Shown here in pieces: positions 507-10,490 of a stretch of 10,490 nucleotides of DNA (the first letter of the stretch is position 1; every line of letters begins with the position of its first letter). Location of the stretch: UHGV virus genome UHGV-1632715; one strand, written 5' to 3'. Under the pieces are notes generated by a model that was not told the DNA's origin, made no database searches, and saw only the letters and a program-made list of their open reading frames with translations. The position numbers were made by a program, and so were the translations under genes. This stretch comes from a virus.

Positions 507-1007
507 TTAGGCGCGAAGACCTTTTTGCGCCTCTAGCCACCGCGCAACGGTTTCTTCAATTGATTCTTTTTTCTCCTTCATTTCCTTAAGCATTTTCTCT
601 TTGTCTTCTTTTGGGAAAGCCCTGAACGTCTGGATCAAATCTCGCTCTATAGGTTCTATATTAAACGGAAGTTCGTTTTCCGATTGTTCCATCTCTGCGG
701 GTAAAGCGACAACATTATCCTGCTGCAGTTCTTGGGGGTACATCCTTACAATTCGTAACAAGTCTGCCATATCTGGTCTAATTGACTCAGGCGGAACTTG
801 TAGCAACCCAGCGAACTTGATAACAGCCTCTAGATTTAAAGGTGTCTGACCATTTAGATAATGGCTTACTGCCCCTTGTGTCGAAAAACCCAGAATTTCT
901 GCCGCACGCTCTTGGGTTAACCCAAGTTGAGTTTTTTTCGTCGTCCAGATTTCTTTCAGTCTCTGGGCGGCTTGCAGGTCGATCTCTGACAGGGGTTTTC
1001 TTTTCAT
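507..1007 (-). CDS. paaR2: Prophage repressor, XRE/CI-type HTH (PaaR2-like), no recognisable S24 peptidase domain
   Basis: 166-aa ORF with an N-terminal HTH (QLGLTQERAAEILGFSTQGAVSHYLNG) of lambda-CI pattern. The C-terminal half is charged/helical with no GDSM or Ser-Lys autocleavage motif seen. It is divergent from the cro-like gene across an operator-bearing spacer and is followed 17 bp later by the antitoxin gene. Confidence 0.8.
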   Translation of the reverse strand: MKRKPLSEIDLQAAQRLKEIWTTKKTQLGLTQERAAEILGFSTQGAVSHYLNGQTPLNLEAVIKFAGLLQVPPESIRPDMADLLRIVRMYPQELQQDNVVALPAEMEQSENELPFNIEPIERDLIQTFRAFPKEDKEKMLKEMKEKKESIEETVARWLEAQKGLRA

Positions 1008-5882: not shown

Positions 5883-6051
5883 TTTTGGTTCAACTAAATA
5901 CAACGTCAGTTTTGAAGCATGGCATGAACTGTTAATGGACTATGCAGAGTTACGTGGTGGCAGTGCTGCTGATGCTGAAGCATGGCGTGATGATTATGAA
6001 GCAGGAAAAACTCCGGTCGAAGCATATTGTGATGAGTGGGGCGATGAATGA
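5875..6051 (+). CDS. Small acidic protein (58 aa), not in the ORF track
   Basis: Hand translation: MADFGSTKYNVSFEAWHELLMDYAELRGGSAADAEAWRDDYEAGKTPVEAYCDEWGDE. Its ATG overlaps the upstream stop (ATGGCTGA) and its stop overlaps the next ATG at 6048. Confidence 0.4.
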   Translation: MADFGSTKYNVSFEAWHELLMDYAELRGGSAADAEAWRDDYEAGKTPVEAYCDEWGDE

Positions 6052-6563
6052 GCGAGATTAATTATCAGGAAGGGCATGAAACGGCAGGGGAGGCAAAAAC
6101 AGTTGCATGGCGATATCGCTACGTGAAAAAAGACGTTACAGACTTTCAGGGGAAGCCGTGGGCTGGTGACTGGAAATATGTACCGACAAAAGAGGATTGT
6201 AACGACAGGCCGAACTATGAAATTCAGGCCTTATTCATCGGCCCGCCAGTCCCGGTGACATCAGAAGGACTGGTTAAAGCCGTGCGCTTTTATGAACAGG
6301 TAAAGCGTGAGAATCCGCCAGTCGAAACAGGAGCATGGAAGGATGCTGTTGACTGGGTGCTCAGAGAGGCCTGCTGCGCTGCCATTCTGGGTAAAGCCGA
6401 CAATCCACCAGCATCCGGCAATCAGGTTAGCGAATTAACAATGTGGGTTAAACGACTGGTCAGTCAACTGAAAAAAGCTCAGCCGGACTGCAAATTACCG
6501 GAGAAGGCGATGGATTACCTGAAACGAAATGGACTGATAAGCGTGGAGGATGTTTTACGATGA
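6048..6563 (+). CDS. Hypothetical phage protein
   Basis: 171-aa ORF, translationally coupled to the upstream small ORF. No family recognised. Confidence 0.6.
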   Translation: MSEINYQEGHETAGEAKTVAWRYRYVKKDVTDFQGKPWAGDWKYVPTKEDCNDRPNYEIQALFIGPPVPVTSEGLVKAVRFYEQVKRENPPVETGAWKDAVDWVLREACCAAILGKADNPPASGNQVSELTMWVKRLVSQLKKAQPDCKLPEKAMDYLKRNGLISVEDVLR

Positions 6564-6683
6564 ATATTTAGACTAAAGAGTTTGTAACGCTATGTAAGTG
6601 ATTTTTTCTGGTTTAGATATTTATATGTCCGGCCAAATTGAGGTGTGTTTAAATGTTATTGCACATTGATTGTAGGGGGAATA

Positions 6684-6863
6684 ATGAAAAACGCATTGCA
6701 GTTTTTGTTTGTTGCGTTCTGGTTGTTCGCATCATGTATGCCCATCATCTTCACAGCAAGGTATATGGAAAAAATTGATGTTTTGATATTAATGTTTGGA
6801 CATATAAATGCCCTTTTTTTAGGGGTGTTCATGGCGGTCATGTGCATTGAATACTGGCGGTAA
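6684..6863 (+). CDS. Small hydrophobic protein (59 aa, two predicted TM helices) in AT-rich island
   Basis: ATG 6684 is preceded by AGGGGGA at 6673-6679. Hydrophobic segments ALQFLFVAFWLFASCMPIIF and INALFLGVFMAVMCIEYW. Base composition is visibly lower in GC than the flanks. Confidence 0.4.
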   Translation: MKNALQFLFVAFWLFASCMPIIFTARYMEKIDVLILMFGHINALFLGVFMAVMCIEYWR

Positions 6864-6918
6864 ATACAGCGAACGCCATTGGTTTAGTTGGATATTTACT
6901 GTGCCGGACAAAAACGGT

Positions 6919-6946
6919 TTGCGGGGAAATCTTAGTTAAGTAGAAT
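6919..6946 (+). promoter_or_regulatory. Candidate promoter for hok mRNA (-35 TTGCGG, 16-bp spacer, -10 TAGAAT)
   Basis: Hexamers at 6919-6924 and 6941-6946; the predicted start lies just upstream of the tac-like 5' element. Confidence 0.35.
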
Positions 6947-6950
6947 AACT

Positions 6951-6964
6951 GCGGGTGCTTGAGG
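6951..6964 (+). promoter_or_regulatory. 5' element of hok mRNA (tac-like) complementary to the 3' fbi-like element
   Basis: GCGGGTGCTTGAGG is the near-perfect reverse complement of CCTCAACGCACCCGC at 7329-7343, with one unpaired base. Confidence 0.55.
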
Positions 6965-7065
6965 CTATCTGTCTCAGGCATGAACACCAAAAGGCAGATA
7001 GAGAAAAGCCCCAGTTAACATTACGCGTCCGGCAAGACGCTTAACATTAATCTGAGGCCATATCT

Positions 7066-7272
7066 ATGCTCTACACACGTAGGTTAGCCTCTTACGGACC
7101 GAAAGGTCAAGGAGAAGCAGGCTATGAAGCAGCAAAAGGCGATGTTAATCGCCCTGATCGTCATCTGTTTAACCGTCATAGTGACGGCACTGGTAACGAG
7201 GAAAGACCTCTGCGAGGTACGAATCCGAACCGGCCAGACGGAGGTCGCTGTCTTCACAGCTTACGAACCTGA
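7066..7272 (+). CDS. mok-like overlapping reading frame (modulator of hok translation)
   Basis: 68-aa ORF in a different frame that starts 58 nt upstream of hok and spans almost all of it, as in hok/mok loci. Confidence 0.45.
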   Translation: MLYTRRLASYGPKGQGEAGYEAAKGDVNRPDRHLFNRHSDGTGNEERPLRGTNPNRPDGGRCLHSLRT

Positions 7273-7279
7273 GGAGTAA
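7124..7279 (+). CDS. hokD: Hok/Gef-family type I toxin (HokD/RelF-like), 51 aa
   Basis: Hand translation MKQQKAMLIALIVICLTVIVTALVTRKDLCEVRIRTGQTEVAVFTAYEPEE matches my recollection of HokD. Flanked by the mok-like frame, 5'/3' complementary elements and a terminator. Below the ORF-track length cutoff. Confidence 0.85.
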   Translation: MKQQKAMLIALIVICLTVIVTALVTRKDLCEVRIRTGQTEVAVFTAYEPEE

Positions 7280-7328
7280 GAGACCTGGCGAGGGAGAAAT
7301 CCCTCGCCACCTCTGATGAGTCAGGCAT

Positions 7329-7343
7329 CCTCAACGCACCCGC
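7329..7343 (+). promoter_or_regulatory. 3' fbi-like element of hok mRNA
   Basis: Complementary to 6951-6964; it lies between the hok stop and the terminator. Confidence 0.5.
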
Positions 7344-7349
7344 ACTTAA

Positions 7350-7377
7350 CCCGCTTCGGCGGGTTTTGTTTTTTCCT
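7350..7377 (+). terminator. Rho-independent terminator of hok transcript
   Basis: Stem CCCGC / GCGGG with a UUCG tetraloop (7350-7363), followed by the T-run ttttgttttttcc. Confidence 0.7.
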
Positions 7378-10146: not shown

Positions 10147-10466
10147 ATTTGTGGTAAATGGGCGGCTGGTGGGTGTGGTGGTTGTTGCTTTCCCGTTGCT
10201 GAAAAAGAAAGCATCAGGCGATTAGCAGGGTATCAGTTACCCGTTGAAATTTTTAAATACCTCACAATTCAGGCGGTTGACTGTTGTCTGGTTTGCGGGG
10301 AGTTTGTTAAAAGAAACTGGCATGGTGAATCCCCCTGTGCGGAGGGGCAATCAGCAACTGGTGTTTTGTCACCGACCCTTATCCTTTCTGTGCGGGTTCA
10401 GGTGCTGATACTGAACTCACCGGGAGGCACCCGGCACCATGCAATGGCACATAGCGCCACTCTCCA

Positions 10467-10490
10467 GCCCCTCTCCGGAGGGGCTTTCTT
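10467..10490 (+). terminator. Hairpin with short T-rich tail, possible terminator, truncated by window end
   Basis: Stem GCCCCTC / GAGGGGC with loop TCCG, followed by tttctt. Confidence 0.35.

What the first reader, a model, noticed from the sequence alone, without database searches (positions are those of the whole stretch)
6564..6900. AT-rich island encoding a tiny two-helix membrane protein
Base composition drops visibly across about 330 bp relative to both flanks, which is typical of a horizontally acquired moron. The only plausible ORF is a 59-aa protein with two hydrophobic helices and an AGGGGGA SD. Candidate roles are small membrane toxin, superinfection-exclusion factor or holin-like modulator. 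It sits directly upstream of the hok locus, which is also a membrane toxin.
Basis: partly seen in the sequence, partly recalled or inferred. Interest (0 to 1): 0.5.

Follow-up and report, generated by a model that had tools for sequence, protein, structure and literature searches.

The report
Unannotated small prophage membrane protein gene
The AT-rich patch holds a real but routinely unannotated 59-codon gene for a tiny envelope protein, carried next to the hok toxin locus in lambda-like prophages of about a third of E. coli genomes; what it does is still unknown.

Summary
Bases 6564-6900 are the lowest-GC stretch of the window (35.6% against 49.8%). They contain one ORF with a ribosome-binding site (6684-6863, 59 aa, AGGGGGA 4 nt upstream) that has two hydrophobic segments. 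A complete hok/sok locus follows immediately.

The ORF is a real gene. A second clade (44% identity, same length and ends, no indels) sits in a decayed prophage remnant at ttcA. Between the clades dN/dS is about 0.19, and only 0.18% of neutral simulations keep the frame open.

The family is confined to E. coli/Shigella prophages. It matches no Pfam, PHROG, NCBIfam or PADLOC model, and RefSeq left it unannotated in all 40 records sampled.

"Moron" fits only partly. The gene is accessory, because most hok loci lack it. But its third-codon GC (0.52) matches its neighbours, I found no promoter or terminator of its own, and it is always fused to the hok leader.

An invariant Ser17-Cys18 fits a lipobox pattern, so it may be a small lipoprotein with one membrane helix rather than a two-helix hairpin.

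Function is inferred only: an envelope-acting accessory protein, most likely superinfection exclusion or modulation of a host membrane protein.

The parts
6564..6683 (+). AT-rich leader (31.7% GC) between the stop codon of the upstream phrog_660 gene and the ORF
   Evidence: Composition. It is nearly invariant among 120 IMG/VR copies, while the upstream gene's 3' end is highly mosaic. Its similarity to clade B is weak and gapped (z=2.35). No sigma-70 site reaches 9/12.
6674..6680 (+). Shine-Dalgarno site AGGGGGA; the last G is 4 nt before the ATG
   Evidence: Sequence. The common polymorphism 6677 G/A gives AGGGGG or AGGAGG, so both alleles keep a strong site. Clade B has AGGGA 6 nt before its ATG.
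6684..6863 (+). ORF59: coding sequence for a 59-aa envelope protein (stop codon included)
   Evidence: Clade B homologue of the same length; dN/dS about 0.19; neutral simulations keep the ORF in 0.18% of runs; it is the only frame open in both clades.
6693..6758 (+). Hydrophobic segment 1 (residues 4-25): either the first membrane helix or, up to Ser17, a lipoprotein signal peptide
   Evidence: Hydropathy; AF2 helix 2-26.
6723..6737 (+). Lipobox-like L-F-A-S-C (residues 14-18); Ser17-Cys18 invariant between the clades
   Evidence: The pattern matches at Cys18 in clade A and clade B, against 6.8% of shuffles of segment 1. Invariant columns are listed.
6780..6848 (+). Hydrophobic segment 2 (residues 33-55), with conserved F38-G39, N42-A43-L44 and G47 (a G39xxxA43xxxG47 small-residue face)
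6814..6820 (+). T7 homopolymer inside the ORF; a site of frameshift variants
   Evidence: Frameshifted database proteins P0020, P0023 and P0025 diverge here. One of 116 anchored IMG/VR copies is truncated at this point.
6864..6909 (+). 3' spacer between the ORF59 stop and the left edge of the hok module; no terminator found
   Evidence: Homology to hok loci that lack the island starts at 6910 (TW14359) or 6934 (ZH193). The terminator scan found nothing here.
6919..6946 (+). hok promoter-like site: TTGCGG, 16 nt, TAGAAT
   Evidence: 8/12 match. It lies just upstream of the start of the Rfam hit at 6953.
6953..7126 (+). hok mRNA leader, the region targeted by Sok (Rfam RF01794). It is always contiguous with the island.
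   Evidence: 109.5 bits against a gathering score of 59. It follows the island at the same distance in 101 of 102 copies.
7124..7279 (+). hokD-type toxin gene (51 aa); the overlapping mok reading frame is 7066-7272
   Evidence: Pfam HOK_GEF E=1.2e-23; ORFs; annotated hokD in RefSeq.
7348..7375 (+). Intrinsic terminator of the hok transcript; the usual right-hand edge of the conserved module
   Evidence: Terminator scan. Homology breaks at 7373 in most loci.

Best explanation
ORF59 (6684-6863) is a real, translated accessory gene in the region between the replication genes and the Q antiterminator (the 'nin' region) of lambda-like E. coli prophages. It encodes a 59-residue cell-envelope protein.

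Shown:
- The protein sequence has been under purifying selection between two old clades.
- The gene is optional among related prophages.
- It always travels fused to the hok/sok leader.

Inferred:
- It is transcribed mainly by read-through of the early-right operon, because I found no promoter or terminator of its own.
- It inserts into the inner membrane with both ends in the cytoplasm. Positive charges sit at the two termini, and the loop is acidic in clade B.
- It works by helix-helix association, with itself or with a host membrane protein, through the conserved G39xxxA43xxxG47 / N42 face of the second helix.

The biological role I consider most likely is envelope-level protection of the lysogen or infected cell: superinfection exclusion, or modulation of a host membrane protein.

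My sub-probabilities: real coding gene about 0.9; inner-membrane location about 0.8; exclusion or host-protein modulation rather than toxin about 0.55.
For: Coding status:
- Exhaustive HMMER and a profile search found clade B (P0037, P0042): 59 aa, 44% identity, same start and stop.
- Between the clades pN=0.33 and pS=0.71, so dN/dS is about 0.19. Identity by codon position is 58/73/50% (chi-square P=0.03).
- The same 71 substitutions placed at random keep the ATG-to-stop frame in 0.18% of 20,000 simulations. The BLOSUM62 score is 166 against a simulated 77 +/- 16 (0 of 5,000 reach it).
- There are no indels in the ORF, while both flanks align only with many gaps.
- It is the only frame open in both clades.
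- A ribosome-binding site is kept in both alleles and both clades.
- GC3, hydrophobicity and periodicity all exceed chance ORFs.
- 115 of 116 DNA-anchored copies are intact.

Membrane character: hydropathy; AF2 two-helix model; conserved polar and small residues.

Accessory status and linkage.

Operon context: repressor, cro, ydaT-like, O-like, P, DUF1627, DUF977 ... ORF59, hok ... DUF968, RusA, Q, all on one strand except the repressor.

Retention: clade B is intact in a remnant whose integrase, permease and hok are all broken, and it is present in 1,045 of 5,426 genomes.
Against: - There is no expression data of any kind.
- Within the clades, 13 of 14 polymorphisms are nonsynonymous. Recent constraint therefore looks relaxed, or the test has no power at 95% or higher identity.
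- Frameshift variants at the T7 run exist in databases.
- No homologue has a known function, and no family model matches.
- The fold search is uninformative.
- Topology and the oligomerisation face are read from the sequence only.
- The lipobox-like motif could mean the first helix is cleaved off.
- Read-through transcription is argued only from the absence of consensus promoter or terminator hits. The scan is insensitive: it also missed the hok and sok promoters at its default threshold.
Confidence: 0.6

Rival explanations
1. It is a small lipoprotein, not a two-helix hairpin. Residues 1-17 are a signal peptide cleaved by signal peptidase II before the lipid-modified Cys18. That leaves a 42-residue lipopeptide held by its lipid and by one C-terminal membrane helix, with only about 14 residues facing the periplasm. 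Small phage lipoproteins such as Cor and Llp block receptors used by superinfecting phages.
For: - MK-N, a 12-residue hydrophobic core and L-F-A-S-C fit the PROSITE PS00013 lipobox pattern and its position rules in clade A and in clade B (I-V-I-S-C). The pattern is recalled from memory. Only 6.8% of shuffles of segment 1 match it.
- Ser17, Cys18 and Pro20 are invariant.
- Residues 1-17 are 29% identical between the clades, against 50% for residues 18-59, as expected for a signal peptide.
- The common A16V variant is lipobox-compatible.
Against: - Phe at position -3 is unusual in clade A.
- Hydrophobicity continues for about 7 residues past the Cys, which suits a 22-residue membrane helix.
- No Pfam lipoprotein-attachment model hit appeared even at E up to 10.
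- A lipoprotein with an extra membrane helix is uncommon.
- Rare natural variants lack the Cys or the Ser.
Confidence: 0.3
2. It is a membrane toxin comparable to the type I toxins or to the two-helix toxin GhoT. It depolarises or permeabilises the inner membrane when expressed, and it forms a double-toxin cassette with hok.
For: - It is small and very hydrophobic, and sits next to hok in both clades.
- Polar residues lie inside the helices and there is a glycine-zipper-like face.
- The long-range 12-nt perfect complementarity between 6619-6630 and 6798-6809 could restrain translation.
Against: - No HOK_GEF, GhoT or other toxin model matches.
- No antisense promoter or terminator and no structured RNA were found. 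The fold z-scores are -1.55 and -1.58, and Rfam gives no hit in the island.
- No partner gene is present.
- The strong ribosome-binding site looks unprotected.
- Clade B stays intact in a remnant where hok itself has been destroyed. An unregulated toxin would be unlikely to survive there.
Confidence: 0.15
3. It is functionally coupled to Hok. It might be an immunity or modulator protein, or transcription through it might alter the hok mRNA leader. That would explain why the two have stayed adjacent through extensive mosaic reshuffling.
For: - The island is contiguous with the hok leader in 101 of 102 copies.
- Clade B, whose synonymous sites are saturated relative to clade A, is still followed within 55 nt by a hok remnant.
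- No terminator separates the two.
- There is a 10-nt perfect complementarity between 6824-6833 and 6979-6988, which lies in the hok leader.
Against: - About 84% of hok-leader places in E. coli lack the island, so Hok does not need it.
- Only two independent lineages support the linkage.
- Clade B persists without a working hok.
- About 0.2 ten-nt complements of this kind are expected by chance in 700 bp (my estimate).
- In about 19 of 102 copies a 3.3-kb insert separates the leader from the hok coding sequence.
Confidence: 0.1
4. The ORF is not functional. The island would then be an AT-rich non-coding spacer or regulatory region upstream of hok (for example H-NS-bound DNA or a recombination linker), with the open frame a by-product of T-rich sequence.
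For: - ORF length alone is not unusual (15.6% of shuffles).
- RefSeq left it unannotated in all 40 records sampled.
- Within-clade changes are almost all nonsynonymous.
- The leader and the ORF are equally conserved within clade A.
Against: - The between-clade signature of protein-level selection and the conserved frame.
- The flanks carry indels but the ORF carries none.
- The ribosome-binding site is conserved.
- GC3 and periodicity exceed chance ORFs.
Confidence: 0.07

Closest known systems
Prophage morons and nin-region accessory genes of lambda-like phages (for example lambda bor and lom, HK97 gp15)
   Same: It is an optional small gene in a variable slot of an otherwise syntenic prophage, it has locally low GC, and it encodes an envelope protein. 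It is present in inducible phages (PhiR42_1, vB_EcoS-640R1, vB_EcoS-813R8) as well as in cryptic prophages.
   Different: I found no promoter-terminator pair of its own. Its synonymous-site GC equals that of its neighbours. It is never seen as a free-standing insertion and always comes with the hok leader and the conserved 3' end of the upstream gene.
Hok/Gef type I toxins (Pfam PF01848), the immediate neighbour
   Same: A small, hydrophobic inner-membrane peptide encoded in the same prophage slot.
   Different: There is no sequence match. It has two hydrophobic segments rather than one. It has no mok-type leader ORF, no fold-back elements and no antisense RNA.
GhoT/OrtT two-helix membrane toxins (57 aa)
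   Same: Similar length and predicted two-helix architecture.
   Different: No Pfam hit even at E up to 10, no GhoS-like partner gene, and a prophage context.
Small phage lipoproteins that exclude superinfecting phages (Cor of phi80/N15, Llp of T5), and the lipobox-plus-C-terminal-helix layout of unimolecular spanins (T1 gp11)
   Same: An N-terminal lipobox-like motif conserved at Cys18, small size and prophage origin. The lipobox plus C-terminal membrane helix resembles the u-spanin layout (the comparison is from my own knowledge).
   Different: There is no sequence similarity. The stretch between the Cys and the helix is only about 14 residues, far too short to span the periplasm. The gene is not in the lysis cassette. 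Lipidation is untested.
Class II holins and pinholins (for example S21, about 70 aa with two membrane helices)
   Same: Two predicted membrane helices in a small phage protein.
   Different: It lies upstream of Q rather than in the late lysis cassette. No holin family model matches. There is no dual-start motif.

Membership tests
Prophage moron (in the sense of Hendrix and Juhala) | Present or absent between otherwise related prophage genomes | tested here: met
   The island occurs at 1,631 places and the hok leader at 10,426 places. TW14359 and ZH193 prophages with the same DUF1627-DUF977...hokD-DUF968-RusA-Q layout lack it.
Prophage moron (in the sense of Hendrix and Juhala) | Own promoter and terminator, allowing expression from the repressed prophage | tested here: not met
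   No sigma-70 site reaches 9/12 and no intrinsic terminator lies in 6564-6909. The best upstream site scores 8/12. None was found upstream of clade B either. The scans are insensitive, so this is weak negative evidence.
Prophage moron (in the sense of Hendrix and Juhala) | Base composition foreign to the surrounding genome | tested here: inconclusive
   Overall GC is 35.6% against about 50%. But GC3 is 0.52, against 0.49-0.55 in neighbouring genes, so the dip lies in codon positions 1 and 2 and in the leader. Clade B has GC3 of 0.33.
Hok/Gef type I toxin-antitoxin | Match to the HOK_GEF protein family | tested here: not met
   No Pfam hit for ORF59, while the neighbouring gene scores E=1.2e-23.
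Hok/Gef type I toxin-antitoxin | Cis-encoded antisense RNA and a structured mRNA leader | tested here: not met
   Rfam gives no hit in 6564-6900. The fold z-scores are only -1.55 and -1.58. No antisense promoter or terminator was found.
Bacterial lipoprotein (signal peptidase II substrate) | Lipobox with an invariant Cys at residues 15-35, a basic N-terminus and an uncharged hydrophobic core | tested here: met
   The PS00013-type pattern (recalled from memory) matches at Cys18 in both clades.
Bacterial lipoprotein (signal peptidase II substrate) | Actual lipid modification and cleavage | not testable with these tools
   This needs globomycin treatment, palmitate labelling or mass spectrometry. 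The Pfam lipoprotein-attachment models gave no hit.
Class II holin / pinholin | Located in the late lysis cassette next to an endolysin, with a match to a holin family | tested here: not met
   The gene lies upstream of Q. The holin and lysozyme genes lie downstream of Q in the matching genome. No holin model matches.
GhoT/OrtT toxin | Sequence membership in the family | tested here: not met
   No Pfam or NCBIfam hit at E up to 0.1, or up to 10 for Pfam.
Known anti-phage defence proteins (PADLOC) | Match to a defence-system model | tested here: not met
   No families matched for clade A or clade B.

The most novel reading that the evidence does not exclude
ORF59 and hok form an ancient two-gene envelope module in which ORF59 has a host-beneficial activity of its own, for example blocking DNA entry or a receptor of competing phages. 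That would explain why it has been kept intact, effectively domesticated, at the ttcA site in about a fifth of E. coli genomes after the rest of the prophage, hok included, decayed.
Probability: 0.12. Interest if true: 0.6.

Novelty: new member of a known kind. Interest (0 to 1): 0.35.

Why it matters
A conserved small envelope protein is carried by roughly 29% (clade A) and 19% (clade B) of complete E. coli genomes. RefSeq annotated none of the 40 copies sampled, and no family database holds it. Transcriptomic, proteomic and transposon studies that rely on RefSeq annotation will therefore miss it.

Small prophage membrane proteins are a known source of superinfection exclusion and of regulators of host transporters. 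This one offers a clean test case: two diverged alleles, natural presence and absence, and a copy retained in a dead prophage.

The lipobox question also matters for predicting where the protein acts. Beyond that it is an ordinary uncharacterised accessory gene, not a new kind of system.

Tried and rejected
- Family searches for ORF59 and clade B found nothing significant: Pfam, PHROGs, NCBIfam and PADLOC. At E up to 10 there were only weak hits: DUF4212 at E=0.032 (clade B members only), plus MPS-4 and DUF443, which I read as hydrophobic noise.
- A PDB sequence profile search gave no hits at E up to 10.
- Foldseek against viral structures gave a best E of 0.78, generic helical hairpins only.
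- Structured-RNA readings were rejected: no Rfam hit in the island and unremarkable folding energy on both strands.
- The antisense 63-aa ORF (6656-6847, minus strand; annotated in phage PhiR42_1) was rejected because it has three stops in clade B.
- The 72-aa GTG-start version (6645) was rejected because a stop lies 5 codons upstream of the ATG in clade B.
- K-12 Qin was checked as a possible carrier. It lacks the island and keeps only 7110-7373.
- A full-text search for the peptide found no paper.
- Hok and prophage papers do not mention an upstream ORF.
- One exact-match scan of species-representative genomes found only Shigella flexneri. That scan needed an exact 29-mer, so it says little about other species.
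- Within-clade dN/dS has too few changes to be decisive.

Full report
**The observation**

The window is the early-right arm of a lambda-like E. coli prophage. It runs from a repressor (507-1007, minus strand) through cro, a YdaT-like gene, O-like and P-like replication genes, DUF1627, DUF977, an Ead/Ea22-like gene and several small genes. It continues with a 171-aa phrog_660 gene (6048-6563), the island, hok/sok, DUF968, RusA and Q.

Bases 6564-6900 are 35.6% GC against 49.8% for the window. Only 0.18% of 337-bp windows are as low.

The ORF runs from ATG 6684 to TAA 6863 (59 aa), with AGGGGGA at 6674-6680. It has hydrophobic segments at residues 4-25 and 33-55, separated by RYMEKID. AlphaFold2 on a 10-sequence alignment predicts helices 2-26 and 31-58 (pLDDT 71.7).

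Downstream, Rfam finds the sok/hok leader at 6953-7126 (109.5 bits). Pfam finds Hok at 7124-7279. The description is correct.

**Is it more than chance?**

ORF length alone is not significant: 15.6% of dinucleotide shuffles give an ATG ORF of 59 aa or more. An ORF of 50 aa or more preceded by a Shine-Dalgarno-like site occurs in 1.1%. Compared with chance ORFs from shuffled island sequence, GC3 (0.52, P=0.002), hydrophobicity (P=0.02) and three-base periodicity (P=0.036) all stand out.

**Is it a gene?**

A word-indexed search found only close E. coli/Shigella relatives, including frameshifted forms. An exhaustive HMMER search of 1.84 billion representatives, followed by a profile search, found a second clade (P0037, P0042). 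It is 59 aa, 44% identical, with the same first and last residues.

Comparing the two coding sequences gives:
- 71 differences in 180 nt and no indel;
- pN 0.33 and pS 0.71, so dN/dS is about 0.19;
- identity of 58%, 73% and 50% at codon positions 1, 2 and 3.

Placing the same 71 substitutions at random keeps an ATG-to-stop frame in 0.18% of simulations. It gives BLOSUM62 scores of 77 +/- 16 against the observed 166.

The flanks are only weakly similar and align with many gaps. In clade B every other frame, including the antisense ORF that one phage record annotates and the 72-aa upstream extension, is broken by stops.

Both clade A alleles (AGGGGG and AGGAGG) and clade B (AGGGA) keep a ribosome-binding site. 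I conclude the ORF encodes a protein that has been under selection.

There is a caveat. Within the clades, 13 of 14 polymorphisms are nonsynonymous. At 95% or higher identity this cannot distinguish relaxed selection from lack of power.

In a sample anchored on DNA outside the ORF, 115 of 116 copies are intact.

**Distribution and context**

Clade A is in 1,552 of 5,426 complete E. coli genomes at 95% identity or higher. It is also in three induced phages and a few plasmid records. RefSeq annotates nothing there in all 40 sampled records. GenBank submitters call it 'hypothetical' or 'membrane protein'. K-12 lacks it.

Homology to the window breaks on the left inside the upstream gene, at 6398, 6417 or 6483. 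On the right it usually breaks at 7373, the hok terminator. The upstream gene's 3' end is highly mosaic, whereas 6568-6875 is almost invariant.

In 101 of 102 copies with enough sequence, the island is followed at a fixed distance by the hok leader. About 19 of these carry a 3.3-kb flxA-ydfV-relBE insert between the leader and the hok coding sequence.

The converse does not hold. The hok leader occurs at 10,426 places in 4,520 genomes, so most hok loci lack the island. Prophages of TW14359 and ZH193 with the same overall layout carry other genes in the slot. Their homology to the window starts at 6910 and 6934 respectively.

Clade B is in 1,045 genomes, always at one locus. That locus is a decayed prophage remnant at ttcA, flanked by an integrase fragment, a DUF1627 fragment, a frameshifted metal-transporter permease and uspF. 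It is also followed, 55 nt after its stop, by a fragment of hok that matches window 7192-7257 at 80%.

**Is it a moron?**

The gene is accessory, which fits. Three things do not fit.
- Its GC3 (0.52) equals that of neighbouring genes (0.49-0.55). The AT-richness lies in codon positions 1 and 2 (52% T at position 2, as expected for hydrophobic residues) and in the 120-nt leader.
- No promoter or terminator of its own passes even a relaxed scan.
- It is never found detached from the hok leader.

I read it as one cargo gene of a recombining module: the 3' end of the upstream gene, ORF59, and hok/sok. It is most probably transcribed by read-through of the early-right operon. That last step is inference from negative scans.

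**What the protein looks like**

Conserved residues are W13, S17, C18, P20-I-I, T24, Y27, L36, F38-G39, N42-A-L, G47, I55-E56 and W58-R59.

Basic residues sit at the N-terminus and at R59. The loop is acidic in clade B. This suggests both termini are cytoplasmic. G39, A43 and G47 form a small-residue face beside the polar N42 and H/Y40. Such a face is typical of helix-helix association (my own knowledge).

MKNALQFLFVAFWLFAS|C fits the classical lipobox pattern at Cys18 in both clades, against 6.8% of shuffles. The first 17 residues are less conserved than the rest, 29% against 50%. The protein may therefore be a small lipoprotein with a single C-terminal membrane helix. I give that about 0.3.

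**Function**

Nothing known matches: Pfam, PHROGs, NCBIfam, PADLOC, PDB sequences and a viral fold library all gave nothing useful.
- A toxin role is disfavoured. There is no antisense RNA or partner gene, and clade B survives where hok was destroyed.
- A holin role is disfavoured by position, upstream of Q.
- Coupling to Hok is suggested by the conserved adjacency, but it rests on two lineages, and most hok loci do without ORF59.

I commit to an envelope-acting accessory protein that works by association within the inner membrane. The most likely roles are superinfection exclusion or modulation of a host membrane protein. This is inference.

**Verdict**

This is a real, widespread, systematically unannotated small-protein gene. 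It is a new member of the familiar class of uncharacterised small prophage membrane proteins, of moderate interest.

Noticed in passing
window 7110-7125; L002 (phage PhiR42_1) 4623-7897; about 19 IMG/VR loci such as L115 and L134: In some prophages a 3.3-kb segment (an IS in some copies, then flxA, ydfV and relBE) sits between the sok/mok leader and the hok coding sequence, with a 16-nt overlap (7110-7125) at the junctions. This appears to be the origin of the K-12 relBE-hokD arrangement, in which hokD has lost its leader.
   Followed up: partly
L286 2339-2443 (E. coli O157:H7 TW14359): A different 34-aa hydrophobic ORF (MSDDISLAMEGALAVIAVVGVYCLVVFLMDRLGN, WP_001278450.1) occupies the same slot just upstream of hokD and is followed by a palindrome. 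The slot may repeatedly host small membrane peptides.
   Followed up: no
L285 2978-5711 (ST131 chromosome NZ_OX637964.1): ISEcp1-blaCTX-M-15 (with the WbuC gene) is inserted in the ttcA prophage remnant, about 600 bp upstream of the clade B ORF.
   Followed up: no
window 10291-10490: Strong Rfam match to sRNA STnc100 (132.5 bits, gathering score 47), downstream of the Q antiterminator gene and cut off by the end of the window.
   Followed up: no
window 7288-7369: Sub-threshold Rfam match to the Salmonella prophage RNA IsrK (27.8 bits, gathering score 50). It covers the hok 3' fold-back region and terminator.
   Followed up: no
window 6814-6820: A T7 run inside ORF59 is where most frameshifted database variants diverge (P0020, P0023, P0025; 11-24 members each). 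These could be real length variation or homopolymer sequencing errors.
   Followed up: partly
window 6619-6630 / 6798-6809, and 6824-6833 / 6979-6988: A perfect 12-nt inverted repeat pairs the leader with the ORF interior. The common C/T change at 6801 would still allow a G-U pair. A perfect 10-nt repeat pairs the ORF 3' end with the hok leader. Either could be chance. Neither was tested for conservation.
   Followed up: no
window 6549-6573 / 6777-6801, and 6613-6637 / 6888-6912: Two imperfect 25-nt direct repeats (76% and 72% identity). The second pair brackets the ORF, and its downstream copy ends at the left edge of the hok module. The best pair is reached by 2% of mononucleotide shuffles. 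Meaning unknown.
   Followed up: partly
window 6398-6563: The last 55 or so codons of the upstream phrog_660 gene are shared with several other PHROG families (924, 8171, 30109). The common left-hand recombination breakpoints (6398, 6417, 6483) lie here. This stretch is highly polymorphic, while the island beside it is nearly invariant.
   Followed up: partly
L276 3001-3180 compared with window 6684-6863: Clade B has GC3 of 0.33 and clade A 0.52. The two copies have very different synonymous-site composition, which may reflect AT-biased decay in the remnant or amelioration of clade A.
   Followed up: no
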